Source: a virus (Duplodnaviria; Heunggongvirae; Uroviricota; Caudoviricetes). Taken from it: a stretch of DNA of 21,502 nt. A program made the translations under genes and the position numbers. Below, piece after piece: positions 1 through 21,317 of this stretch. The first letter of the stretch is position 1, and every line of letters begins with the position of its first letter. The notes under the pieces were generated by a model. It ran no database searches, was not told the origin of the DNA, and saw nothing but the letters and a program-made list of their open reading frames with translations. The stretch is from the IMG/VR virus record IMGVR_UViG_2541047680_000007; one strand, 5' to 3'.

Positions 1-368
1 CTGTTTCCGTTGACGAAGTTCACCGCATCCAGAAAACGGGCGTAAACCTTACGCCTGACCACCGTTCCGCCGACCAGACTCTGCAGATCTTCCGCCATCC
101 CGGTGACCATACCGTACAGGTTAGAAACCGTCAGCGTGGGGCGCGTACTGGTGCCTTTGCCATTCAGTTCAAAACCGCTCCCCTGAATGGGATACGCCTG
201 ATACTGCCGCCCCTGCCAGGTGACCGGCTCACCTTTTTCGTTCTGCTCATTACAGAAAAAATAACGTTCTCCACCGACCTCTGTCAGATCGATCTCCCAG
301 AGCACCACGCTGGCCGACTGCTCCGCACGGGTGCATTCATTCAGTGTTTCCTGCCGGATATCCTGCAT
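1..368 (-). CDS. L: Minor tail protein L, N-terminal part only (gene continues beyond the window start)
   Basis: Minus-strand frame starts at ATG 368..366, overlapping the M stop codon in an ATGA arrangement. Translation begins MQDIRQETLNECTRAEQSASVVLWEIDL..., matching remembered lambda gpL. Lies in the expected lambda gene order after M. Confidence 0.85.
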   Translation of the reverse strand, partial: MQDIRQETLNECTRAEQSASVVLWEIDLTEVGGERYFFCNEQNEKGEPVTWQGRQYQAYPIQGSGFELNGKGTSTRPTLTVSNLYGMVTGMAEDLQSLVGGTVVRRKVYARFLDAVNFVNGN

Positions 369-697
369 CAGTTCACCACCTGTTCAAACTCTGCGCTGAA
401 CTCAACACGCAGCATACTGACCCGCGACGACCATTTTGCGCAGGTCACCTTTATCTGCCGCCACTCATAAGGCGGCGTCCACAGAAAGGCCTTCCAGCCC
501 CCGTGCTCAGCCAGAAACGACTCCAGCGCCGTGGCCTCCTCACGGGAGACAGACAGCGTCACGCTGTACGTTTTCAGGTCAGCGTTCAGCCCGGCAGGCG
601 CACGCTGGGAATAGCCATCACCAAAGCGCACCTCCCTGACGGAAGGAGCCGATGTCACATCCATCCCGGGTTTCACTTTCCAGCGGAAGGTTTTCAT
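368..697 (-). CDS. M: Tail tip assembly protein M
   Basis: 109-aa ORF MKTFRWKVKPGMDV...RVEFSAEFEQVVN, near-identical to remembered lambda gpM in sequence and length. Overlaps the H stop and the L start. Confidence 0.9.
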   Translation of the reverse strand: MKTFRWKVKPGMDVTSAPSVREVRFGDGYSQRAPAGLNADLKTYSVTLSVSREEATALESFLAEHGGWKAFLWTPPYEWRQIKVTCAKWSSRVSMLRVEFSAEFEQVVN

Positions 698-3255
698 CGT
701 CCACCTCCGGAGAACAGGCCACCATCACGCATCTGTGTCTGAATTTCATCACGGGCACCCTTGCGGGCCATGTCATACACCGCCTTCATCATCTGTGGAC
801 CTGGCAGACCATTCGTACCGTCGTTCTGAATCACCACGTGATTGTTCTGATTAAAATTAATGCCTTCAGCCCGCCGCATCTGCGCCGGACTTCCGGCACC
901 GCCCACATAACCACCTTCCGCATAGCCCCGCATTAGGCGGTACAGGTTGCCGACACCAATCCGGCTGGTTGCCTCCTTCGTGAAGACAAACTCACCACGG
1001 TGAACAATCCCCGCTGGCTCATATTTGCCGCCGGTTCCCGTAAATCCTCCGGTTGCAAAATGGAATTTCGCCGCAGCGGCCTGAATGGCTGTACCGCCTG
1101 ACGCGGATGCGCCGCCACCAACAGCCCCGCCAATGGCGCTGCCGATACTCCCGACAATCCCCACCATTGCCTGCTTAAGCAGAATTTCTGTCATCATGGA
1201 CAGCACGGAACGGGTGAAGCTTCGCCAGTTCTGCTCACTGCCGGTCAGCATCGCCGCCATATTATGCGCAATACCATCAAAGGTCTGCGTGGCAGCACTT
1301 TTAACCTGCGACATACTGTCCGTGGCGCTCTCTTCCCACTCACTCCAGCCGGACTTCAGGCCTGCCATCCAGCTCCCGCGAAGCTGGTCTTCAGCCGCCC
1401 AGGTCTTTTTCTGCTCTGACATGACGTTATTCAGCGCCAGCGGATTATCGCCATACTGTTCCTTCAGACGCTGTTCCGTAGCTTCCCACGCTGCCTGCCG
1501 CTCAGTCAGCCCCCGGCTTTTCGCATCAATGGCGGCCCGTTTTGCCCGTTGCTGCTGTGCGAATTTATCCGCCTGCTGTACCAGTTCGTTCAGCCGTTTC
1601 TGGTGTTCAATCTTATCGCCAAGTTCAGCCAGCTGGCGTTTGTACTCCAGCGTCTCATCTTTATGCGCCAGCAGGGATTTCTCCTGTGCAGACAGCTGGC
1701 GACGTTGCGCCGCCTCCTCCAGTACCGCGAACTGACTCTCCGCCTTCCACAAATCCCGGCGCTGCTGGCTGATTTTCTCATTTGCTCCGGCATGCTTCTC
1801 CAGCGTCCGGAGTTCTGCCTGAAGCGTCAGCAGGGCAGCATGAGCACTGTCTTCCTGACGATCGCCCGCAGACACCTTCACGCCGGACTGTTTCGGCTTT
1901 TTCAGCGTCGCTTCATAATCCTTTTTCGCTGCCGCCATCAGCGTGTTGTAATCCGCCTGCAGGATTTTCCCGTCTTTCAGTGCCTTGTTCAGTTCTTCCT
2001 GACGGACGGTATATTTCTCCAGCGGCGTCTGCAGCCGTTCGTAAGCCTTCTGCGCCTCTTCGGTATATTTCAGCCGTGACGCTTCGGTATCGCTCTGCTG
2101 CTGCGCATTTTTGTCCTGTTGAGTCTGCTGCTCAGTCTTCTTTCGGGCGGCTTCAAGCGCAAGACGGGCCTTTTCACGATCATCCCAGTAACGCGCCCGC
2201 GCTTCATCGTTAACAAAATAATCATCCTTGCGCAGATTCCAGATGTCGTCTGCTTTCTTAAACGCAGCCTCTGCCTTAATCAGCATCTCCTGCGCGGTAT
2301 CAGGACGACCAATATCCAGCACCGCATCCCACATGGATTTGAATGCCCGCGCAGTCCTGTCTGCCCAGGTCTCCAGCGTGCCCATGTTCTCTTTCAGGCG
2401 GCGGGTCTGGTCATCAAACCCTTTCGTTGCGGCCTCGTTCGCCGCCTGCAATGCCCCGGCTTCATCGCCGGAACGCTGCAACTGAGCAACATACGCAATC
2501 TGCTCCGCCGTCACGTTATGGAACTGGCGCGCCATCGCCGTCAGCCCCGACGTCGGGTCAGTGGTCAGCTTCCCGAAGGCTTCAGCGACCTTGTCCACCT
2601 CCACACCGGATGCAGAGGAGAAACGCGCCACACTCTGGCTGATGGACGCAATCTGAGCCTCACCGCTTACCCCCGCCTTAACCAGTGCACTGAGTGACTC
2701 GCTGGTCTGGTTAAACGTCAGCCCTGCCGCCTGCCCGGCTCTGGACAGGACCAGCATACGATCTGCCGTCAGACCCGACTGATTACCGGAAAGGACCAGC
2801 GTTTTGTTGAAATCGGACAGGGTTGAGTTACCCTGATACCAGGCATACGCCAGCGCACCGGTCGCCACCGCCAGCGAGGTGGCCCCGACCATCGGCAGGG
2901 TGATCGCACCGGCAAGCCCCCGGAACATGGGGATCATCCCGCCGAAGGAGTCCTTAACCTGACCACCCTGTTGCAGCAGGATCAGCCACGGGCTTTGCCC
3001 GCCTGCAAGCTGCGTGGCCACGTCGGTGAACTGTGCAGGCAGCATACGCATGGCGGCTTTATACTGCCCGACGGAAATCCCCGCTTTCTGTGCAGCCAGC
3101 GCCTGTCGGCTCAGCGACTGTTCAACGACTGCCGCTGTTTTTTTCGCATCAGTTTCCGTACCGGAAAAATGACGCCTGACTCTGGCCATCTGCTCGTCAA
3201 ATCTGGCCGCATCCAGACTCAAATCAACGACCAGATCGCCTACCGGTTCAGCCAT
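694..3255 (-). CDS. H: Tail tape measure protein
   Basis: 853-aa ORF, the same length as lambda gpH. Long coiled-coil Q/A/E/K-rich centre and glycine-rich C-terminal region; N-terminus MAEPVGDLVVDLSLDAARFDEQ matches remembered lambda H. Confidence 0.93.
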   Translation of the reverse strand: MAEPVGDLVVDLSLDAARFDEQMARVRRHFSGTETDAKKTAAVVEQSLSRQALAAQKAGISVGQYKAAMRMLPAQFTDVATQLAGGQSPWLILLQQGGQVKDSFGGMIPMFRGLAGAITLPMVGATSLAVATGALAYAWYQGNSTLSDFNKTLVLSGNQSGLTADRMLVLSRAGQAAGLTFNQTSESLSALVKAGVSGEAQIASISQSVARFSSASGVEVDKVAEAFGKLTTDPTSGLTAMARQFHNVTAEQIAYVAQLQRSGDEAGALQAANEAATKGFDDQTRRLKENMGTLETWADRTARAFKSMWDAVLDIGRPDTAQEMLIKAEAAFKKADDIWNLRKDDYFVNDEARARYWDDREKARLALEAARKKTEQQTQQDKNAQQQSDTEASRLKYTEEAQKAYERLQTPLEKYTVRQEELNKALKDGKILQADYNTLMAAAKKDYEATLKKPKQSGVKVSAGDRQEDSAHAALLTLQAELRTLEKHAGANEKISQQRRDLWKAESQFAVLEEAAQRRQLSAQEKSLLAHKDETLEYKRQLAELGDKIEHQKRLNELVQQADKFAQQQRAKRAAIDAKSRGLTERQAAWEATEQRLKEQYGDNPLALNNVMSEQKKTWAAEDQLRGSWMAGLKSGWSEWEESATDSMSQVKSAATQTFDGIAHNMAAMLTGSEQNWRSFTRSVLSMMTEILLKQAMVGIVGSIGSAIGGAVGGGASASGGTAIQAAAAKFHFATGGFTGTGGKYEPAGIVHRGEFVFTKEATSRIGVGNLYRLMRGYAEGGYVGGAGSPAQMRRAEGINFNQNNHVVIQNDGTNGLPGPQMMKAVYDMARKGARDEIQTQMRDGGLFSGGGR

Positions 3256-4086
3256 ACCGGACTCCTCCTGCGATCCCTTCTGATACTGTCATCAGCATTA
3301 CGTCATCCTCCGTCATGTCCGCCACATCCGGGGAAACGGGGATAACTTCATTCCCGTCCGGGCCAAAACGAACGCCTCCGGCAAGCCCTGCCGCTTTCTG
3401 CATCAGCACATCATCTTCAGGCTCTTCGTCAGCCTCGCGCCGGTTCAGCAGACTGAAATCCAGCGGATGCATATCCGGATCGCTGAAAAACAGGCTGAGT
3501 ACGGTGTACGTCAGCCCGGAAAAGTGCATATCCAGCAGAACATCATGAAAATAATGGGTACTGTAAAAGCGGTGCCAGTCGGCATACTCCGTGGATGACA
3601 TCCCGGCAAGCATGGCGCGCCAGTCGGGTCGCCCCATCTCACGCGCCAGTTTCAGGGCAAAACTCAGCTCACCGTCGAACACTTTCCCGCAGAAACAGGC
3701 TCTGCAGGCCCGGCGTCATCTGCCTGTTCAGGGGCATTATTCACCACAAACTCAGACATTCCGGACAGACGTAACACCACGTTTTCAGCCTGAGCAATTG
3801 CCTCCGTGGGCCAGGTGGTAAGCACTTCCTGCTCAATCTGTTTAACGGCTTCATTCATGGAAGGCTGCTTTGTCTTCTGCGGATGGTTATGCCACAGGGA
3901 CATCGCCACCACAAAAGCACCGGTTCTGATGGCGTCTTCCACAGTAACCTGCCGGTTGCTGTCTGACTCCGCCTGTTCTGCCTGCTGTTTCATCAGGGCG
4001 AGATGCTCAATACGCTGCAGGGCTGACAGTTCAGAAAGCGTGACGGTCACGCCGTTATGTTCAAATGATTCGGTTTTCAGGAACAT
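3248..4086 (-). CDS. T: Tail assembly protein G-T fusion, made by programmed -1 ribosomal frameshift from G into the T frame
   Basis: The T frame (3248..3682, MFDGELSFALKLAREMG...) has no independent start context and overlaps the G 3' end. Minus-strand sequence ...CTGCGGGAAAGTGTTCGAC... contains the canonical slippery heptamer G GGA AAG exactly where the -1 frame continues as VFDGELSF. Confidence 0.8.
3664..4086 (-). CDS. G: Tail assembly chaperone G
   Basis: 140-aa ORF ending ...SAGKCSTVS, located between V and the T frame. A slippery heptamer lies near its 3' end. Confidence 0.88.
   Translation of the reverse strand: MFLKTESFEHNGVTVTLSELSALQRIEHLALMKQQAEQAESDSNRQVTVEDAIRTGAFVVAMSLWHNHPQKTKQPSMNEAVKQIEQEVLTTWPTEAIAQAENVVLRLSGMSEFVVNNAPEQADDAGPAEPVSAGKCSTVS
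3682..3688 (-). other. Slippery heptamer GGGAAAG (programmed -1 frameshift site for G-T)
   Basis: Plus strand 3682..3688 is CTTTCCC, i.e. GGGAAAG on the coding strand, in the G/T overlap. Confidence 0.75.
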
Positions 4087-4101
4087 CGCTGACTCTCCGG
4101 A

Positions 4102-4872
4102 TTAACTGGCGGTGACGGTGATTTCTGCAACCGCAGCAAGTTCACCATTACCGGATACAACCGGAATGTTGACCTTGCCTGCAGCAACGCCGTTCACGGT
4201 GATGGTCATACCACTGACCGACACGGTGGCTTTTGTTTTATCCGCAGACACCGCACGGAAGCTCTTGTCAGTTGCGCCCTCCGGCTGGAAGGCCACGGTC
4301 AGCGTGGTGCTCTGCCCTTTCACCACCGAGGAGCTGGCAGGCGTCACGGTCATACCGGTTGCCGCCGTCACCGTACTGCGATCTTCTGCCATTGACGGAC
4401 GGCCCACATTGGTGACCTTCACCGTACGGGTGATCACTTCCTTCGCCGTCACCGCCTTACCGATACTGCTGACCCAGCCACGGAACACATCGACCGTGCC
4501 GTTCGGAAAGCGGATTTTATAGGCACGGGTATCACCTTCATTAAACCACGCCAGCAGCGCCTGCTGCCCCTGCTCTCCGGGCATCCACGCCAGCGTGAAG
4601 CTGGTATCTCCGGCTGACTTCTGCCCCTGTCCGGTCGCGGTCCAGTCCGCATCTTCATCATCGAGATAACTGTCGTCATAGGACTCAGCGGTCAGTTCGC
4701 CGGGCGTCAGGTCTTTAACTTTAGCCAGACGCGACCAGTCAACGTCTGAAAGCGGGTTCGCATAAGGGTCACCGTTCCCCTTATAAACCCACAGAGTGGT
4801 TCCGGCACCTTTCACCGGCATTGTTGGATTTGGTACAGGCATAGCGTCCTCACATTTCATAGGTAATGACAT
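4102..4872 (-). CDS. V: Major tail tube protein V (with C-terminal Ig-like extension)
   Basis: 256-aa ORF in the lambda V position between U and G. C-terminal part ...[70 protein letters not shown]... has an Ig-like (Big_2-type) pattern. Confidence 0.88.
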
Positions 4873-5245
4873 AAGTCAGATCGGCTGAACTCCACAGGCC
4901 CGCATCATCGTCGCGCCGGTAGTCATAGCCACTGGCCACCATACTGGTGATCAAATCTGACAGTGCCGGGATATCGCTCATCACCGGATAAATCCGGGAC
5001 TCCATCCACGAATCCAGCTCTGAATCCGGCACCTGAGCAGGCAGGAAAACTTCAATATGCAGCTCCGCCTGCCAGGTATCGCTGTCCAGCTCTTCGCCCG
5101 TGTATTCAGCGCCAGTGAGATAAACGGCAATTGCCGGAAAATCTTCCTCATCAAAAACAGCGGGGCGACCATCAAAAAGCGTCGCCCCGGTGTCATGCTT
5201 CTCCAGTGCATCCAGTACGGCTGCACGGAGTTCAGTATGTTTCAT
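4850..5245 (-). CDS. U: Tail terminator protein U
   Basis: 131-aa [70 protein letters not shown]..., near-identical to remembered lambda gpU and the same length. Confidence 0.9.
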
Positions 5246-5820
5246 CGCTTTATTACCATTCTCAGTTGATGCTGCAGCGCATAGTCCAGCTCTTTCGGAA
5301 GACGTTCACGCCGTATCCGCTCAATATTCTGTTTAAACGCCGTGGTCAGCGGCACCGCCATCGGGATTTTCACCACATCAATGGGGTAACGGTTTTTCCC
5401 GGCCACACGCTGCATGACATGCCACCGGCCATTTTTCAGTTGCTGAATAAACGCGCCGGGAATACGACGGTTTCCCGCCACAAGCACGCTGCCGCCACCT
5501 TTCAGGGATGAACGCTGCCCCTTTTTACGACGCCTGCGTCGGGACAGGACAACCCGCGCGTTACCCAGCTTGATTACGGGCAAATCCCCCCGGTTAACTT
5601 TGATTCTGGCCTGCGGATTTTTGACCGTGGCCCTTTTCAGCCTGGCCCTTTCCTTTACCAGTTTCCGGCGTACCTTTGTCTCACGGGCAACCTGTGACGC
5701 AGACTGCGATATCGCGGATGACGCAACGCGGTTAATGGCCATTGCGGCGGCACCAGGCACTGCCGTTTTGCTGATACGGCTGAGGTTTTCAACGGCCTGC
5801 TCAAGACCTTTTATGGCCAT
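5242..5820 (-). CDS. Z: Tail completion protein Z
   Basis: Track ORF 5242..5886 trimmed to the internal ATG at 5820..5818 (MAIKGLEQAVENLSRISK...), giving 192 aa like lambda gpZ. The 22 codons upstream overlap FII and are probably not translated. Confidence 0.85.
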   Translation of the reverse strand: MAIKGLEQAVENLSRISKTAVPGAAAMAINRVASSAISQSASQVARETKVRRKLVKERARLKRATVKNPQARIKVNRGDLPVIKLGNARVVLSRRRRRKKGQRSSLKGGGSVLVAGNRRIPGAFIQQLKNGRWHVMQRVAGKNRYPIDVVKIPMAVPLTTAFKQNIERIRRERLPKELDYALQHQLRMVIKR

Positions 5821-5831
5821 ACATCCCCCTT

Positions 5832-6185
5832 TCAGCGGCGACGGCTGGCGGCAGGTGGTTGCCCCCGGTTGAGCCAGAGATAACAACTCCCTCCGTCATC
5901 CGGAGAAACACGGTCCACCCAGAACATCTCGCCGTTAATGGTCAGCGTGTCACCACGCCGTACAGCACAAACCGTATCCGTAAGCACAAATAATGACGGG
6001 TTACTTCCTTCAATACGGATCCCACTACTGGCAAAACCCAGCGACTCCGGATCGTCAAAAACGCCATGAACCTCGCCGCCACGCTGTGCACCGGAGGTGA
6101 ACTGCGCACTGATGCCCATCACTTCAACAATCGTACTGTCCACCCCGGCAAGGGCGGCATCAAAGGCATTCTGAAAATCACGCAT
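5832..6185 (-). CDS. FII: Head-tail joining protein FII
   Basis: Trimmed to ATG 6185..6183 (MRDFQNAFDAAL...), 117 aa as in lambda FII. C-terminal motif FWVDRVSPDDGGSC...RRR is shared with lambda FII while the N-terminal part diverges. Confidence 0.8.
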   Translation of the reverse strand: MRDFQNAFDAALAGVDSTIVEVMGISAQFTSGAQRGGEVHGVFDDPESLGFASSGIRIEGSNPSLFVLTDTVCAVRRGDTLTINGEMFWVDRVSPDDGGSCYLWLNRGQPPAASRRR

Positions 6186-6552
6186 AAACAGCCATTCCAC
6201 CATCAACGTGTGTTTTTGCATCTGAGGACATAATCAGAATCACCCGACCAACATCCGCAAGCTCAACGGATTCCCCCGTTTCACCATCAACGCCACAGAG
6301 ATGGAGGCAGGTCAGAACTCTGATGCGCGTTAACGCGCCGGATGTTTCCTCACGAACATCATGAGCCGCGGTTTCCCGCTCCCGGATATCCATATTCATA
6401 ACCTGTACATCATCGCCGGATGACTGCATTTCCTCTTCCCATTCTGCCACCCGCTGCGCTATCTCTGCGGCACTCCCGGATATATCCGGCTCACGCCCCA
6501 GAATCAGGGCCAGTTCATCAAGCCGTTTCAGATTTTGCTCTTTCGTTGCCAT
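6178..6552 (-). CDS. FI: DNA packaging accessory protein FI-like
   Basis: Positional homolog between E and FII. Start chosen at ATG 6552..6550 (MATKEQNLKRLDELALIL...), preceded by the Shine-Dalgarno-like AGGGGGC; acidic central region as in lambda FI. Sequence similarity to lambda FI is weak, so the call is mainly by position. Confidence 0.65.
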   Translation of the reverse strand: MATKEQNLKRLDELALILGREPDISGSAAEIAQRVAEWEEEMQSSGDDVQVMNMDIRERETAAHDVREETSGALTRIRVLTCLHLCGVDGETGESVELADVGRVILIMSSDAKTHVDGGMAVYA

Positions 6553-6603
6553 ATCAGCCCCCTGTGAAAAAAGACACGGGGGCATTTCGCCCCCGCTCAC
6601 GGA

Positions 6604-7632
6604 TTATTTCACCTGTACCACCACAAACTCATCCGGGTCCGGCAACACCATCAGCGGCGCGGACTGCGTCATGGTAAATTCACGGGCGGGATCCCCTACC
6701 GTCAGCCAGTGTTTCGGATAACGGGAAGAGGCCACCACACCTTCGGACAACGCCTGAGCATCCTGAATGGCACCGTAACAACGGATCCCATCTGCAGCAG
6801 TATTCCCCAGAACCAGCATGCCATCTGGAAGATAACGTTTTTCGATACCGTCTTCTGCTATATAAGACGTTTTCGCCACCACAATGGCCAGATCGCCGTA
6901 ATACCCCTTGAAGGACACCACTGCGCCCAGATCTTTCACTGCCGTTTCGAGTTGAGAATTTGAACCGCGACGGGTATCCAGTTTTTCGCGGAACAGCTTA
7001 AAACCATTCAGAAGACGCCAGACGGTACCGTCCATAATGGCAATATTCACAAGACCGCTGGCCAGGTCGCAGTAGAGGTCAATATCATGTGTAGGATCGA
7101 ACGTGTCACGATCCTGTTTTGACCACTCCTTACCACTACCCTGAGTGATGTTATTCTTCGTCGACCTGCCAAAATCGACCTCAATTTTCTCGAACTGGTC
7201 TCCTTCCATGGTGTATTTGCCATACAACACAGCATTTACCGCCTGCATTTCTTCCACCTGGACAATCGCGTGCTCTTCCTGTTTGAGGTTATCGGTAATG
7301 ATACGCAGACGGCGGTAAGCCGGATCATTCAGTTGAGATGGATCTTCACCAGGAAGGCGCTCAACCGCCTGCTGGTAATTAAATTCGTGTTTCGGCTTGA
7401 CGTAGCCCGGACGCAACACGCGGGTTTCACCACCACGATGACGCAGCACTTTTCCTTCAACAACCGGGGAGACATAGGCCGCCACCGGCGTTTTTCCGGT
7501 AATTTTGTCCAGCATCACCTCTTCGGTATGGAAATTCACCGTACGGCGGAAAAACAGCTCCAGAAACAGCGCACGAAATTTAACTTTTTGTTCGGTATAA
7601 CCGAGTAACTGGCGGGTCGTAAACAATCCCAT
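6604..7632 (-). CDS. E: Major capsid protein
   Basis: 342-aa ORF (lambda gpE is 341 aa). Conserved blocks RGG, PGYVKPKHE, DPAYRR, VEEMQAV, GKYTM, NNITQ, EWSK, LDTRRGSNS, LETAVKDLG, TGDPAREFTM, QSAPLM, ADPDEFV match remembered lambda gpE, roughly 55-60% identity by eye. Confidence 0.92.
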   Translation of the reverse strand: MGLFTTRQLLGYTEQKVKFRALFLELFFRRTVNFHTEEVMLDKITGKTPVAAYVSPVVEGKVLRHRGGETRVLRPGYVKPKHEFNYQQAVERLPGEDPSQLNDPAYRRLRIITDNLKQEEHAIVQVEEMQAVNAVLYGKYTMEGDQFEKIEVDFGRSTKNNITQGSGKEWSKQDRDTFDPTHDIDLYCDLASGLVNIAIMDGTVWRLLNGFKLFREKLDTRRGSNSQLETAVKDLGAVVSFKGYYGDLAIVVAKTSYIAEDGIEKRYLPDGMLVLGNTAADGIRCYGAIQDAQALSEGVVASSRYPKHWLTVGDPAREFTMTQSAPLMVLPDPDEFVVVQVK

Positions 7633-7656
7633 AAATCAGTTCCTTTCATTCAGAAA

Positions 7657-7674
7657 TCAGTCAGGCCACCGCGG
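7657..7674. repeat. Perfect 18-bp palindrome AGGCCACCGCGGTGGCCT in the D-E intergenic region (potential RNA hairpin)
   Basis: Read directly from the sequence; self-complementary across its full length. Sits between the D stop (7690) and the E start (7632). Confidence 0.6.
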
Positions 7675-7689
7675 TGGCCTGATAACGTG

Positions 7690-8037
7690 TTACGGCAGCG
7701 CCGCGTGACTCAGGGCACTGCCAGCAAAGGCGTTGGCCTTTTTGTGTTCATCCACACTTTCAGGCCAGTGGATTGCCTCCGTCGCAAAGGTTCCCGACTT
7801 GTAATACGTCAGCGCCGTCTCTGTGCCTTCAAGCGGCAGTACCAGTATGCCAACCGCACTACCGGCTTTCTGTCCGTCCCAGACCACCAGTTTCCCGGTG
7901 GCTTCATCCAGCATCAGGGGCGTCAGTGCCGGTGTTGGCGAGGAAATCCCGCTGCTGCCTGTGGCGGTATGAGCCGGATCATTACCGGCAAAAATACGTA
8001 CTTCCGCACGCTGTTCAGTGATGGTTTTCGTCACCAT
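7690..8037 (-). CDS. D: Capsid decoration protein D
   Basis: 115-aa ORF with motifs DPAHTAT, TPLMLD, KLV.WDG, AVGIL, YKSGTF, WPE, AFAG matching remembered lambda gpD, in the lambda D position. Confidence 0.85.
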   Translation of the reverse strand: MVTKTITEQRAEVRIFAGNDPAHTATGSSGISSPTPALTPLMLDEATGKLVVWDGQKAGSAVGILVLPLEGTETALTYYKSGTFATEAIHWPESVDEHKKANAFAGSALSHAALP

Positions 8038-8073
8038 ATTGTAAAAACCTCCTATTGATGGTCAGCACTGACT

Positions 8074-8676
8074 TCATGGCATGGCCATGAGCATTTTCAC
8101 GTCCGCATCACCGTCTGCTGACGTCTGTGCCACGCCACCCTGTACCGCTGCCGGTGAATGGTTCGCCATGAAATGTTCAAACATGGCGGTTGTGGATGCA
8201 GAGACCGGTTCTGCCTTACCTGATCCCGCAGCCAGCACAGCCCGGGCGCTCTCCACTGTCATTCCCGGGCAGGCAGCCAGCTGTTCAGCCTGCGCCTCAG
8301 CCCCTTTTGCCTCATCCAGTGCCATGATCTGATCACGGAGTGATGGTCCGGCATCCGCCTGCGGTGAAGCAGCCAGGATCGGGCGGGCTTTTTCCACCGT
8401 CATCTCCGGCATCGCCGCCAGCGTTGCCGCCAGTTGTTCACGACCGTTCGCTTCTTCACACACCATAATGCGATCGGCTTCACTCTGCGTGGATGCCACC
8501 GGCTGCTGCGGTGCCGCCGCGGCCAGAATCGCCCGGGCCTGTTCAACGCTCATGCCCTGTTGTCCTGCCAGCATCGTGGCAAGCTGTTCACGTCCTTTCG
8601 CTTCCTGGCATGTCAGGATCCCCATCACTCGCTGGTTCTCCTGCGCGGCGGCTTCCGTTGCAGTTAATTGCGGCAT
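8074..8676 (-). CDS. Nu3: Scaffolding protein Nu3-like, in-frame nested gene within the 3' part of C
   Basis: Internal ATG at 8676..8674 is preceded by a strong Shine-Dalgarno GAGGAGG at 5-nt spacing (minus strand AGAGGAGGCACTATGCCGCAA...). This gives a 200-aa in-frame product, about the size of lambda Nu3, which is likewise nested in C. Confidence 0.65.
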   Translation of the reverse strand: MPQLTATEAAAQENQRVMGILTCQEAKGREQLATMLAGQQGMSVEQARAILAAAAPQQPVASTQSEADRIMVCEEANGREQLAATLAAMPEMTVEKARPILAASPQADAGPSLRDQIMALDEAKGAEAQAEQLAACPGMTVESARAVLAAGSGKAEPVSASTTAMFEHFMANHSPAAVQGGVAQTSADGDADVKMLMAMP

Positions 8677-17781: not shown

Positions 17782-18261
17782 TTTTATTCCTACGGGTCTT
17801 ATTCTGACAATATATCCTGTGTTCCAGACTGCCACATCACCACATCCTGTGCCATTATCTGACTCACATTACATACATCGCATCGGGATACAGTAGTAGC
17901 ACTTTCTGTAATACAGCTTCCTGTTTCTTCCACCATCGCACCGGGATAAACCCGCGAATCATTAACGCGGTAAAAACCCGGTGTGCATCGTTTTTAATTA
18001 TTCCCGCACACTCACGCAGAAGGAATTCCCCGTCGGGCTACGGTCATGGTTAATGCGGGAATACGGCGACGATACAGCGCAGCTAAAAGGGTAATGGACG
18101 GATAGACCGGTTTATTTCATTCCACAGGATTCTGAGTGTCCCCAACTTCCTCCAATAGTCTGAGCCCACCTGTGTAGTTTTAATTTTCATCAATCCATTT
18201 AACTATCGTTTAATTGTTGTCACATAGGATTCTGCCGTTTTTAACAATGCAGGATAATAAG

Positions 18262-18555
18262 ATGAAAAAAATGTTGTTTTCTGCCGCTCTGGCAATGCTT
18301 ATTACAGGATGTGCTCAACAGACGTTTACTGTTGGAAACAAACCTACAGCAGTAACACCAAAGGAAACCATCACCCATCATTTCTTCGTTTCGGGAATTG
18401 GGCAGAAGAAAACTGTCGATGCAGCAAAAATTTGTGGTGGTGCAGAAAATGTTGTTAAAACAGAAACCCAGCAAACATTCGTAAATGGATTGCTCGGTTT
18501 TATTACTTTAGGCATTTATACTCCGCTGGAAGCGCGTGTGTATTGCTCACAATAA
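18262..18555 (+). CDS. bor: Bor outer-membrane lipoprotein (serum-resistance moron)
   Basis: 97-aa product from ATG 18262 (MKKMLFSAALAMLITGC AQQTFTV...), near-identical to remembered lambda Bor, with lipobox LITGC. Oriented opposite to the late operon, as in lambda. Confidence 0.9.
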   Translation: MKKMLFSAALAMLITGCAQQTFTVGNKPTAVTPKETITHHFFVSGIGQKKTVDAAKICGGAENVVKTETQQTFVNGLLGFITLGIYTPLEARVYCSQ

Positions 18556-18586
18556 TTGCATGAGTTGCCCATCGATATGGGCAGCT

Positions 18587-19048
18587 CTATCTGCACTGCT
18601 CATTAATATACTTCTGGGTTCCTTCCAGTTGTTTTTGCATAGTGATCAGCCTCTCTCTGAGGGTGAAATAATCCCGTTCAGCGGTGTCTGCCAGTCGGGG
18701 GGAGGCTGCATTATCCACGCCGGAGGCGGTGGTGGCTTCACGCACTGACTGACAGACTGCTTTGATGTGCAACCGACGACGACCAGCGGCAACATCATCA
18801 CGCAGAGCATCATTTTCAGCTTTCGCATCAGCTAACTCCTTCGTGTATTTTGCATCGAGCGCAGCAACATCACGCTGACGCATCTGTATGTCAGTAATTA
18901 CCGCGTTCGCCAGCGTCAGTTCTCTGGCATTTTTGTCGCGCTGGGCTTTGTAGGTAATGGCGTTATCACGGTAATGATTAACAGCCCATGACAGGCAGAC
19001 GATGATGCAGATAACCAGAGCGGAGATAATCGCGGTTACTCTGTTCAT
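18587..19048 (-). CDS. Rz: Inner-membrane spanin Rz
   Basis: Trimmed to ATG 19048 ([44 protein letters not shown]...), 153 aa, near-identical to remembered lambda Rz. Start overlaps the R stop (ATGA). Confidence 0.92.
18646..18828 (-). CDS. Rz1: Outer-membrane lipoprotein spanin Rz1, embedded in the +1 frame of Rz
   Basis: 60-aa [63 protein letters not shown] with lipobox and proline-rich body, near-identical to remembered lambda Rz1; wholly inside Rz. Confidence 0.9.
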
Positions 19049-19542
19049 TGCTGACCCCACAAACAGATTTCACGCTCAATCTCACGACGAGTCATGAGAC
19101 CTTTCCATTGCTTACCGCCAGCATATGTCCAGCGACGTAGCTGATCACATGCGCCTTTGATATCGCCCTGGTTTATTTTGCGAAGAAGCGTCGATGTTCT
19201 GAAATTGCCAGCACCCACGTTGTAAACGAATGAGTAAAGAGCGCCGCGCATTGTTTCCGGTATATCGACTTTGATGTACGGGTTAATTTGTCTGGCGACC
19301 GTGGCAAGGTCTTTATTCAGGAGGGCTTTGCATTCTGCTTTGGTATACGTTTTACCGAGCATGATGTCTTTTCCTGTATGCCCGTGACATACAGTCCATA
19401 CACCAACAATATCTTTGTATGGTATGTAGCTGACACCTTCCAGACCATCGTTACCACTTGGGCCAGTGATTAACACTGATGCTATAGCAATTGCTCCGCC
19501 ACCAATAGCAGCAGCAACGGCTTTTCGTAATGATGGAGGCAT
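19045..19542 (-). CDS. R: SAR (signal-arrest-release) endolysin, phage-21 R-type lysozyme
   Basis: 165-aa ORF. N-terminal [27 protein letters not shown] is a weakly hydrophobic Gly/Ala-rich SAR domain, followed by a T4-lysozyme-like catalytic region (E...D...T). Matches remembered phage 21 R. Confidence 0.9.
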
Positions 19543-19757
19543 TATTCACCTCTCGCAGCCTTGCGCTTATCTTCTTTAATCTTGAAATAAAGGTTTGTCA
19601 GGTACGTCAGCAGGCCAAATACCAGGCTACCCAGCACACCTATTGCCGCCCACTGTGAGGGCGTGACTTTATCGAGCAACTGTAAAAACCAGTACCCGGC
19701 ACTACCTGCTGAGGTACCATAGGCGACACCCGTTGTTAACTTATCCATGGATTTCAT
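19542..19757 (-). CDS. S: Pinholin (S21-type holin) with dual-start motif (Met1 antiholin / Met4 holin)
   Basis: 71-aa [74 protein letters not shown] with two transmembrane segments and a charged C-terminus. ATG codons at positions 1 and 4; Shine-Dalgarno GAGGTGGGG upstream. Confidence 0.9.
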
Positions 19758-19883
19758 AACCCCACCTCGCAGACAAAGCGGGTGTAAATTAAGGGGATAC
19801 TACGTATCGCAATAAAGGCAGAAACGTAACAGATTCGGAGTCAGTGAATAACTCAGGTATTGGGTTATCAGCTAATATCGAGA

Positions 19884-19919: not shown

Positions 19920-20345
19920 AAGCTGTGTGACGAAGTAACCACTCTTAACAGCATAACCAATTTTTTACGTACGTAAACTACTAAATGATATTTGTGAGAA
20001 TGCCACCGAGTGTTCAAAACACCACCACAAATGCATAAGAAAACTTCAACAAATAACCAGTTAATAATTTCCGATGTTATTTTTAGTTTGTTTAAATTAA
20101 GCTAAAGAATTATAGAGCACTTATAAATAAGTGCCATTAATATAAATTAGCTAATAGATTTATTTTTGTTCAGACAAGAGCCATGAATAGGATTAGATAG
20201 AAAAGGTTCAGATAAAAATAGAGATCTACTTCACAAATTAAATGAGAAACTAAAACTTACATCTTGAAATAATCACATTGATTAGATGAATATTTATCGC
20301 GCAGTGACATCATTTTTTAATAATAGTTCAAAAAAAGGGCGTACA

Positions 20346-21317
20346 ATGAAAAAATTAACAGTGGCAATTTCTGCTGTAGCTGCATCAGTACTGATGGCGA
20401 TGTCTGCTCAGGCAGCTGAAATTTATAATAAAGACAGTAACAAGCTGGATCTATACGGGAAAGTTAATGCCAAGCACTACTTCTCCTCTAATGATGCAGA
20501 TGATGGTGATACTACTTATGCCCGTCTTGGCTTCAAAGGTGAAACCCAAATCAACGATCAACTGACTGGTTTCGGTCAGTGGGAATATGAATTCAAAGGC
20601 AACCGTGCTGAATCTCAAGGTTCTTCCAAAGACAAAACCCGTCTTGCATTTGCAGGCCTGAAATTTGGTGATTACGGCTCAATCGATTACGGCCGTAACT
20701 ACGGTGTAGCATACGACATCGGTGCGTGGACTGACGTTCTGCCAGAATTCGGTGGTGATACCTGGACCCAAACAGATGTGTTCATGACTGGTCGCACTAC
20801 TGGTGTTGCAACTTATCGTAACAACGACTTCTTTGGTCTGGTCGATGGCCTGAACTTTGCTGCTCAGTATCAGGGTAAAAATGACCGCACTGACGTAACT
20901 GAAGCCAATGGTGATGGTTTCGGTTTCTCCACTACTTATGAGTATGAAGGATTCGGCGTGGGTGCAACCTATGCTAAATCAGATCGCACTGACGGTCAGG
21001 TCGCCTATGGTAAGAGCAAATTCAATGCCTCCGGCAAAAATGCGGAAGTATGGGCTGCAGGCCTGAAATATGATGCGAACAATATCTATCTGGCTACCAC
21101 ATATTCTGAAACTCAGAATATGACCGTTTTTGGTAATAACCATATTGCAAACAAAGCACAAAACTTTGAAGCAGTAGCACAATATCAGTTTGACTTCGGT
21201 CTGCGTCCATCTGTTGCTTACCTTCAGTCAAAAGGTAAAGACCTTGGTGTTCATGGTGACCGAGACTTAGTCCTGAGAGATCCCCTCATAATTTCCCCAA
21301 AGCGTAACCATGTGTGA
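20346..21317 (+). pseudogene. nmpC: NmpC/Lc/OmpD-type general porin gene (prophage moron), 3'-truncated by IS10 insertion
   Basis: From ATG 20346: signal peptide [23 protein letters not shown], then the classical porin start [16 protein letters not shown] and porin blocks ([79 protein letters not shown]). After ...GDRDLV (about 21272) the frame enters IS10 and ends [14 protein letters not shown], lacking the roughly 40 C-terminal residues and terminal Phe of OmpC-family porins. Confidence 0.85.
21264..21272. repeat. Candidate 9-bp IS10 target site (GACTTAGTC) abutting the IS10 inside end
   Basis: The symmetric 9-mer GACT-T-AGTC immediately precedes the IS10 terminus and resembles the IS10 target consensus NGCTNAGCN. 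The second copy would lie beyond the window and cannot be checked. Confidence 0.45.

What the first reader, a model, noticed from the sequence alone, without database searches (positions are those of the whole stretch)
5820..6221. Mosaic junction between 21-like head module and lambda-like tail module near the FII/Z boundary
Proteins from Z through M (Z, U, V, G, T, H, M) look nearly identical to lambda, whereas Nu1, A, B, C, D, E, FI and FII are clearly homologous but much more diverged. FII itself is diverged at its N-terminus and lambda-like at its C-terminus (FWVDRVSPDDGGSC...RRR), which places a recombination breakpoint inside or just downstream of FII. Together with the phage-21-type lysis cassette, this is a classic lambdoid module exchange.
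Basis: partly seen in the sequence, partly recalled or inferred. Interest (0 to 1): 0.4.

Follow-up and report, generated by a model that had tools for sequence, protein, structure and literature searches.

The report
Phage 21 head–lambda tail recombination joint
The window is a phage-21-type prophage whose head genes are only about 60% identical to phage lambda and whose tail genes are about 97% identical, with the switch in the last four codons of the head-tail joining gene FII; this joint is real but ordinary, because it is already present in the published phage 21 genome and in hundreds of E. coli prophages.

Summary
Against lambda, Nu1 to FII are 52-67% identical in nucleotides (24-65% in amino acids). 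Z to M are 93-99% identical (91-99% in amino acids). The step is abrupt. The last mismatch of the diverged side is at window 5845, and the maximum-likelihood changepoint is 5845/5844, at FII codon 113/114, 9-13 nt before the FII stop codon.

The lambda-like FII C-terminus (FWVDRVSPDDGGSC) lies in a 115-nt stretch of 76% identity whose synonymous sites are heavily diverged (pS 0.55, against 0.075 in Z). That similarity is protein conservation, not exchanged DNA. The same motif occurs in PhiR12_1, which has a non-lambda tail.

The joint is not specific to this window. The head, cos and lysis parts are 98-100% identical to phage 21 (OL657228), which carries the same joint. So do 18 phage records and about 424 E. 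coli genome records. PhiR12_1 pairs a 21-type head with a different tail and switches at the same point.

Best explanation: one old head/tail module exchange, probably by homeologous recombination in the conserved FII 3' end.

Verdict: already known, low interest. Also seen: an IS66-family element splits the terminase gene.

The parts
5840..5845 (-). Recombination joint: the switch from 21-type to lambda-type sequence, at FII codons 113/114 (...PPAAS|RRR*).
   Evidence: The last window/lambda mismatch is at 5845. The first site where the window equals lambda but differs from PhiR12_1 is 5841. The ML changepoint is 5845/5844, with support interval 5844-5840.
5832..6185 (-). FII (phage 21 gene 8), the head-tail joining or stopper protein, 117 aa. 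It is 64% identical in aa to lambda gpFII and 100% identical to phage 21.
   Evidence: Pfam PF05354 Phage_attach, E 1e-15. PDB 1k0h gpFII, E 2e-47 over the full length. Gene identities are and the phage 21 annotation.
5846..5960 (-). A 115-nt 'shoulder' at the FII 3' end, of intermediate identity: 76% to lambda against 56% for the rest of FII. It encodes the conserved beta-sandwich and C-loop of gpFII.
   Evidence: Segment identities are. pS is 0.55 here, 0.80 in codons 1-75 and 0.075 in Z. Megablast matches of all lambda-head phages start at this point, query position 1041.
5821..5831 (-). FII-Z intergenic spacer with the Z ribosome-binding site (AAGGGGGATGT). It is identical to lambda and different in PhiR12_1.
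   Evidence: The phage 21 record annotates an RBS here.
5242..5820 (-). Z, the tail completion protein and first gene of the lambda-type tail block (98% nt, 99% aa to lambda).
   Evidence: Pfam PF06763 Minor_tail_Z, E 7e-81.
1..5844 (-). Lambda-type tail block within the window (Z, U, V, G, T, H, M and the start of L), 95.8% identical to lambda 7837-13796. In phage 21 the block continues to lambda 18002, inside J.
5846..16691 (-). 21-type head and packaging block (FII, FI, E, D, C/Nu3, B, W, A, Nu1, cos), 52-67% identical to lambda. It differs from phage 21 at 1 base (9605). It is interrupted by an IS at 13078-15776.

Best explanation
The window is the late region of a phage-21-type (Jouyvirus-like) prophage of E. 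coli. The finding is the fixed product of one old exchange between two homologous but long-diverged lambdoid virion gene sets. Everything from cos through FII codon 113 is the 21-type head and packaging module. Everything from FII codon 114 onward (RRR, stop, the Z ribosome-binding site, then Z to M, and in phage 21 on into J) is the lambda-type tail module.

Shown:
- The step itself and its position.
- The more than seven-fold drop in synonymous divergence across it.
- Its presence in phage 21 and in many prophages.
- The existence of a 21-type head joined to a different tail, which switches at the same point.

Inferred:
- The crossover happened by homeologous recombination (lambda Red/Rad52-type or RecA) within the FII 3' end. 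That stretch stays about 76% identical between the two head types because the gpFII beta-sandwich and C-terminal loop are under purifying selection.
- The hybrid is viable because gpFII is the only head-module protein that must dock on the tail. According to the lambda virion structure, its N-terminal helix holds gpW on the head side, and its beta-hairpin and C-terminal loop contact the gpU ring. A joint at the FII/Z border therefore keeps every head-head and tail-tail contact within one module and leaves a single conserved interface to bridge.
For: Step and position:
- Searches give 39% mismatches on the FII side against 2.9% on the Z side, a changepoint at 5845/5844 and an LRT of 814.

Divergence time differs across the step, not only constraint:
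- pS is 0.80 (FII codons 1-75) and 0.55 (codons 76-113), against 0.075 (Z) and 0.055 (U).

Same joint elsewhere:
- Phage 21 is identical to the window across it.
- 18 phage records cover at least 80% of a 2.2-kb probe across the joint.
- 424 E. coli records are at least 95% identical to a 291-nt junction probe, including the type strain ATCC 11775.

Third parent type:
- Upstream of about 5850, PhiR12_1 is 88-97% identical to the window in most 200-column windows, but only 44-79% across FI and the FI/FII border (window about 6570-6050). Downstream of 5850 it is mostly 65-90%, with local dips to 46%, to both the window and lambda.
- At base level, the window follows PhiR12_1 to 5846 and follows lambda from 5844.

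All lambda-head phages examined (lambda, 434, PhiR46_1, Stx1 phage, 2B8) show the same last mismatch.

Mechanism:
- The >95% block flanked by a 115-nt stretch of 76% identity, over a 52-67% background, matches the 'hit plus shoulder' signature of homeologous recombination. Red recombines 22%-diverged DNA efficiently (PMC2327257).
- The gpFII domain contacts come from PMC10721106.
Against: - The direction of the exchange and its parents are not determined. PhiR12_1 may itself be the recombinant.
- The shoulder can be explained by protein constraint alone, so it does not prove a homology-driven crossover. Illegitimate recombination followed by selection for a joint at a gene border would leave the same picture.
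- The tail-facing gpFII hairpin is not especially conserved (8/17 residues). The 'conserved docking face' argument therefore holds only for the beta-sandwich (35/45) and the C-loop (7/10).
- pS in the shoulder (0.55) is lower than in the FII 5' part (0.80). This could instead mark an older, separate exchange tract.
Confidence: 0.9

Rival explanations
1. The breakpoint lies in mid-FII, at about window 5960. The whole lambda-like C-terminal third of FII came in with the lambda tail.
For: Identity to lambda rises from 56% to 76% at about 5960. BLAST alignments of all lambda-head phages start there. pS falls from 0.80 to 0.55.
Against: - 28 differences in 114 nt and a pS of 0.55 are far from the 0.075 of Z.
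- The changepoint analysis puts the step at 5845/5844.
- PhiR12_1 has a non-lambda tail yet carries the same conserved C-terminal protein sequence and a similar pS to lambda of 0.60.
- At most, this would be an older, separate exchange that predates the 21/PhiR12 split.
Confidence: 0.07
2. There was no recombination. Head and tail genes of one vertically inherited genome simply evolve at different rates, with tail genes under much stronger constraint.
For: Tail proteins are highly conserved among many lambdoid phages.
Against: - Synonymous divergence differs more than seven-fold across a boundary no wider than about 5 nt.
- The non-coding FII-Z spacer is identical to lambda.
- PhiR12_1 combines the same head type with a tail that is mostly 65-90% identical.
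Confidence: 0.01
3. The FII/Z border is a recurrent exchange point, a conserved 'linker' in the Susskind-Botstein sense, used repeatedly and independently rather than in one ancestral event.
For: - Divergence between the window and phage 21 begins only downstream of the border: the first mismatch is at 5722, with 163 mismatches in the tail against 1 in the head.
- Phage 2B8 has a variant-Z patch that starts about 100 nt into Z.
- PhiR12_1 switches at the same place.
Against: - The window/lambda step and the window/PhiR12_1 step are two views of a single event.
- All 21-head phages examined share the same base-level joint, which is what common descent predicts.
- The patchy tail divergence is expected wherever many near-identical partners exist, and it needs no special site.
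- No Chi site was found in window 1-8000.
Confidence: 0.25
4. The joint is an assembly chimera of two prophages in the source genome.
For: None. This is considered only because E. coli genomes often carry several lambdoid prophages (median 1, up to 5 places per genome).
Against: The identical joint is in phage 21 sequenced from purified virions by two methods (PMC9119081). It is also in induced phages PhiR63_2 and PhiR57_1 and in hundreds of complete genomes.
Confidence: 0.005

Closest known systems
Escherichia phage 21 (OL657228; Jouyvirus), left arm and lysis region
   Same: - Window 1-13077 matches phage 21 13984-908 at 98.7%, and window 15777-16691 matches 915-1 at 100%.
- The head genes give identical proteins.
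- The FII/Z joint is identical to the base.
- The S21/R21/Rz/bor/cos region is 98.2% identical.
   Different: - The window carries a 2699-bp IS66-family insertion in the terminase large-subunit gene.
- The tail block differs from phage 21 at 163 positions, in patches.
- Upstream of S, the window has a porin gene instead of phage 21's tRNA genes.
Escherichia phage lambda (NC_001416), genes Z to M
   Same: Lambda 7837-13796 matches window 5960-1 at 95.8%. Gene order and lengths are identical from Nu1 to M.
   Different: All genes from Nu1 to FII codon 113 are only 52-67% identical in nucleotides.
Escherichia phage PhiR12_1 (PV340549) and relatives (PhiR5_1, phage 204576)
   Same: A 21-type head module, 88-97% identical to the window from W to FII in most 200-column windows, except FI and the FI/FII border at 44-79%.
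   Different: Its tail module is mostly 65-90% identical to both the window and lambda, with local dips to 46%. Z is shorter (534 nt), and the FII-Z spacer differs. This shows that the 21-type head is not tied to the lambda-type tail.
'Hit plus shoulder' homeologous-recombination junctions in lambdoid phages (Martinsohn, Radman and Petit 2008, PMC2327257)
   Same: A block of more than 90% identity is bordered by a short stretch of intermediate identity over a lower background. The paper reports a median shoulder of 200 bp at 64% identity. Here the shoulder is 115 nt at 76%.
   Different: Here the shoulder coincides with a strongly conserved protein segment, so constraint alone could produce it.

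Membership tests
Phage 21-type late region (Jouyvirus-like prophage) | Near-identity of the head and packaging genes and cos to phage 21 | tested here: met
   Window 5846-16691, excluding the IS, differs from OL657228 at 1 base. The proteins Nu1 to FII are 100% identical.
Phage 21-type late region (Jouyvirus-like prophage) | S21 pinholin, R21 SAR endolysin and Rz/Rz1 lysis cassette | tested here: met
   Window 16692-19758 is 98.2% identical to phage 21 39866-42931. The R and Rz proteins are identical, and S is 71 aa with several substitutions.
Phage 21-type late region (Jouyvirus-like prophage) | An intact, functional virion gene set | tested here: not met
   The terminase large-subunit gene is split by an IS66-family element at 13078-15776. 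The prophage is a 21-type relative but probably cannot package DNA.
Lambdoid mosaic (module-exchange) junction | An abrupt step in pairwise nucleotide identity between two otherwise collinear genomes | tested here: met
   The mismatch rate falls from 39% to 2.9% at 5845/5844, with an LRT of 814.
Lambdoid mosaic (module-exchange) junction | The step is also seen at synonymous and non-coding sites, so it reflects different ancestry and not different constraint | tested here: met
   pS is 0.80 and 0.55 in FII against 0.075 in Z. The FII-Z spacer is identical to lambda.
Lambdoid mosaic (module-exchange) junction | Alternative module combinations exist in other genomes | tested here: met
   A lambda head with a lambda tail occurs in many phages. 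A 21 head with a lambda tail occurs in phage 21 and 17 other phage records. A 21 head with a different tail occurs in the PhiR12_1 group.
Lambdoid mosaic (module-exchange) junction | The junction lies at or next to a gene or domain border | tested here: met
   The joint is 9-13 nt upstream of the FII stop codon, within the gpFII C-terminal loop (residues 108-117).
Homeologous (Red/Rad52-type) recombination product | A shoulder of intermediate identity flanks the high-identity block | tested here: inconclusive
   A 115-nt shoulder at 76% is present, but it coincides with a conserved protein segment. The other end of the block lies outside the window; in phage 21 it is inside J.
gpFII / Phage_attach head-tail joining proteins (PF05354) | Profile match above the curated threshold and full-length similarity to lambda gpFII | tested here: met
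   PF05354 scores 58.6 bits against a cut-off of 26. PDB 1k0h matches at E 2e-47 over residues 1-117.
gpFII / Phage_attach head-tail joining proteins (PF05354) | Binds gpW-loaded heads and gpU-terminated tails | not testable with these tools
   This is inferred from the lambda virion structure (PMC10721106) and from the fact that phage 21 is a viable phage with this gene set (PMC9119081).

The most novel reading that the evidence does not exclude
The last about 120 nt of FII plus the FII-Z spacer may act as a preferred crossover site for swapping head and tail modules among E. coli lambdoid prophages. On this reading, the site is kept similar between head types by constraint on the gpFII tail-docking fold. 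21-type heads stay clonal (1 difference from a 1950s Paris isolate) while the attached lambda-type tails are continually re-patched from the much larger pool of lambda-type tails.
Probability: 0.25. Interest if true: 0.3.

Novelty: already known. Interest (0 to 1): 0.1.

Why it matters
It matters little beyond correct annotation. The joint is a textbook example of lambdoid modular mosaicism. It is carried unchanged by phage 21, whose complete genome is public (OL657228, PMC9119081). From my own knowledge, the lambda/21 pattern of diverged heads and homologous tails has been known since the heteroduplex maps of the 1970s.

Three small points of value:
- The joint is placed to within 5 nt, at FII codon 113/114. 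The older phage 21 head-operon sequence M81255 stops at window 6017, before the joint.
- The lambda-like FII C-terminus is shown to be protein conservation and not exchanged DNA. This is a caution for anyone inferring breakpoints from protein similarity.
- The PhiR12_1 group provides the alternative pairing of a 21-type head with a different tail.

Tried and rejected
- I tested phage 2B8 as a fourth combination (lambda head with a PhiR12-type tail). It has only a variant patch inside Z, at about window 5760-5360, and returns to lambda-type from U onward. I therefore dropped the claim of a full 2x2 reassortment.
- I looked for a second changepoint marking the shoulder. The best second split fell at 6578, the very diverged FI gene, and not at 5960. 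The shoulder rests on the segment identities and the pS values only.
- I looked for Chi sites (GCTGGTGG, either strand) in window 1-8000. None were found.
- Literature searches for an explicit published description of the lambda/21 FII joint found nothing in the searchable library. The 2022 genome announcement does not discuss it. The 1993 Smith and Feiss papers are not held.
- I tested whether the tail-facing parts of gpFII are more conserved than the head-facing helix. The results are mixed: N-helix 12/21, hairpin 8/17, C-loop 7/10, beta-sandwich 35/45.

Full report
**What the window is**

The virion genes lie on the minus strand. The tail genes M to Z occupy 368-5820. FII is at 5832-6185. 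FI to Nu1 occupy 6178-16503. The cos end is at about 16691, and the lysis genes are at 18587-19757.

A megablast of the whole window against phage records gives its best matches to induced E. coli phages PhiR63_2 and PhiR57_1 (99%) and to phage 21 (OL657228, 98.8%). Pairwise BLAST shows that window 1-13077 matches phage 21 13984-908 at 98.7%. Window 15777-16691 matches phage 21 915-1 at 100%. The 2699 bases in between are absent from phage 21.

**Check of the observation**

I aligned the window, with the insertion removed and in phage orientation, to lambda 1-13796 and phage 21 1-13984.

- From cos to FII, identity to lambda in 200-column windows is mostly 0.5-0.74, with local dips to 0.28.
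- From window about 5800 downward it is 0.94-1.0, except for a variable patch near the 3' end of H.
- Per gene, Nu1, A, W, B, C, D, E, FI and FII are 52-67% identical in nucleotides and 24-65% in amino acids.
- Z, U, V, G, T, H and M are 93-99% identical in nucleotides and 91-99% in amino acids.

At base level, the last differences from lambda are at 5848, 5847 and 5845. From 5844 the sequences are identical through CGT CGC CGC TGA, the 11-nt spacer with the Z ribosome-binding site, and into Z. The next difference is at 5761.

A single-changepoint likelihood scan over 7600-4000 places the step between 5845 and 5844, with a support interval of 5844-5840. The mismatch rate is 39% on one side and 2.9% on the other, and the likelihood-ratio statistic is 814. 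There are 128 mismatches in 340 nt on the FII side against 7 in 340 nt on the Z side (Fisher p about 1e-35).

That region, window 5960-5846 or FII codons 76-113, is 76% identical to lambda in DNA, against 56% for the rest of FII. This is why all BLAST alignments to lambda-head phages start at 5960.

Its synonymous sites are heavily diverged, however. pS is 0.55 (dS about 1.0), compared with 0.80 in codons 1-75, 0.075 in Z and 0.055 in U. PhiR12_1 has a tail that is not lambda-like, yet it has the same FWVDRVSPDDGGSC motif and a pS of 0.60 to lambda in this segment.

The protein similarity is therefore conservation of gpFII and not imported lambda DNA. The imported DNA starts at codon 114. A weaker possibility remains open: the lower pS of this segment could record an older, separate exchange that predates the 21/PhiR12 split.

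**The joint belongs to phage 21, not to this window**

Phage 21 is identical to the window across the joint. From 5723 to cos, the window differs from phage 21 at a single base (9605). The tail part carries 163 differences in patches. In some patches the window equals lambda and phage 21 differs (for example 4844-4719). In others lambda equals phage 21 and the window differs (1625-1222). This is the picture expected from repeated homologous exchange among the many near-identical lambda-type tails.

A 2.2-kb probe across the joint is covered at 80% or more by 18 phage records. About 90 further records with lambda-type heads match only from position 1041 of the probe, which is window 5960. A 291-nt probe centred on the joint is at least 95% identical in 424 E. 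coli records, including the type strain ATCC 11775. About 3200 records match at 80-90% from probe position 31, which is the lambda-type FII/Z arrangement.

In phage 21, the lambda-like block runs from 8025 to 18189 (lambda 7837-18002). It covers the whole tail module from the FII 3' end into J. The older phage 21 head-operon sequence M81255 ends at window 6017, inside gene 8 (FII) and before the joint. The 2022 announcement of the complete genome does not comment on the joint.

**A third genome type fixes the interpretation**

PhiR12_1 (PV340549) has a 21-type head module. It is 88-97% identical to the window from W to FII in most windows, though FI and the FI/FII border are only 44-79%. Its tail module is mostly 65-90% identical to both the window and lambda, with local dips to 46%.

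In the three-way alignment, the window follows PhiR12_1 down to 5846 and follows lambda from 5844. The first site where the window equals lambda and differs from PhiR12_1 is 5841. The window and phage 21 are thus a 21-type head joined to a lambda-type tail. The 21-type head is not obligatorily linked to that tail. Which lineage is the recombinant cannot be decided from these data.

Phage 2B8 first looked like a lambda head on a PhiR12-type tail. It has only a variant patch inside Z.

**How it most likely arose and why it works**

Shown:
- An abrupt change of ancestry lies 9-13 nt before the FII stop.
- It is flanked on the head side by a 115-nt stretch of intermediate identity.

Inferred: the crossover took place by homeologous recombination in that stretch. 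Martinsohn et al. found that lambda Red recombines 22%-diverged sequences efficiently. They also found that about half of the >90% blocks shared between lambdoid genomes are bordered by such 'shoulders', far more than expected by chance (PMC2327257). Illegitimate recombination followed by selection for a functional joint at a gene border cannot be excluded.

The position of the joint makes functional sense:
- FII matches Pfam Phage_attach and lambda gpFII over its full length (PDB 1k0h, E 2e-47).
- In the lambda virion, the gpFII N-terminal helix (residues 4-24) holds the gpW barrel on the head side.
- Its beta-hairpin (residues 46-62) and C-terminal loop (residues 108-117) contact the gpU ring on the tail side (PMC10721106).
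- A joint at the FII/Z border therefore keeps all intra-head and intra-tail contacts within co-evolved modules and leaves one interface to bridge.

Conservation between 21-type and lambda gpFII is 12/21 in the N-helix, 8/17 in the hairpin, 35/45 in the second half of the beta-sandwich and 7/10 in the C-loop. The claim that the tail-facing surface is specially conserved is therefore only partly supported. The hairpin binds by backbone beta-augmentation, which tolerates side-chain change; this last point is my inference.

**Comparison with what is known, and verdict**

This is a standard lambdoid module junction, and it is the joint of a classical phage whose genome is public. From my own knowledge, which I could not retrieve with these tools, heteroduplex mapping in the 1970s already showed that lambda and 21 are homologous in the tail genes and diverged in the head genes.

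The only additions here are the base-level position, the demonstration that the FII C-terminal similarity is constraint and not exchange, and the PhiR12-type alternative pairing. Novelty: already known. Interest: low.

**Other things seen**

- An IS66-family (ISCro1-like) element of 2699 bp lies at 13078-15776. It has an 8-bp target duplication (AATCAGAT) and GTAAGCG-type ends, and it interrupts the terminase large-subunit gene. The same insertion occurs in 11 complete E. coli genomes. This prophage probably cannot package DNA.
- Similarity to phage 21 stops at the start of S. Upstream lies a porin gene, as in PhiR63_2.

Noticed in passing
window 13078-15776 (target duplication at 13070-13077 and 15777-15784): A 2699-bp IS66-family (ISCro1-like) element sits inside the terminase large-subunit gene (A / phage 21 gene 2). 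Its genes are tnpA 15046-15723, tnpB 14699-15046 and tnpC 13108-14679, all on the minus strand. It has an 8-bp target duplication (AATCAGAT) and GTAAGCG-type ends. The prophage is therefore probably defective for packaging. The same insertion is present in 11 complete E. coli genomes.
   Followed up: partly
window 1-5722 versus 5723-16691: Relative to phage 21, isolated in Paris in the 1950s, the head, packaging and cos part has 1 difference (at 9605). The tail part has 163 differences clustered in patches. Examples: at 4844-4719 the window equals lambda and phage 21 differs; at 1625-1222 lambda equals phage 21 and the window differs. The head module looks clonal and the tail module repeatedly re-patched.
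   Followed up: partly
window about 789-1000 (3' end of H, just before M): A short hypervariable stretch in the tape-measure gene where the window, lambda and phage 21 all differ. Identity is 0.72 to lambda and 0.845 to phage 21 in that 200-column window.
   Followed up: no
window 16692-19758 and 20286-21317: cos, bor, Rz/Rz1, the R21 SAR endolysin and an S21-type pinholin are 98.2% identical to phage 21. Similarity ends exactly at the start of S. Upstream, the window has an OmpD-like porin gene (343 aa, plus strand), as in PhiR63_2, where phage 21 has tRNA genes. This is a second mosaic joint.
   Followed up: partly
L009 (phage 2B8, NC_049952), corresponding to window about 5760-5360: 2B8 has lambda-type head genes, FII and the FII-Z spacer, but a variant Z gene (534 nt, partly 99% like PhiR12_1). 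The variant starts about 100 nt into Z, and the sequence returns to lambda-type from U. This is another junction close to the FII/Z border.
   Followed up: partly
window 6178-6185: In the 21-type module FI and FII overlap by 8 nt (ATGCGTGA), whereas in lambda they are separated by 11 nt. FI is the most diverged gene of the set, at 24% aa identity to lambda.
   Followed up: no
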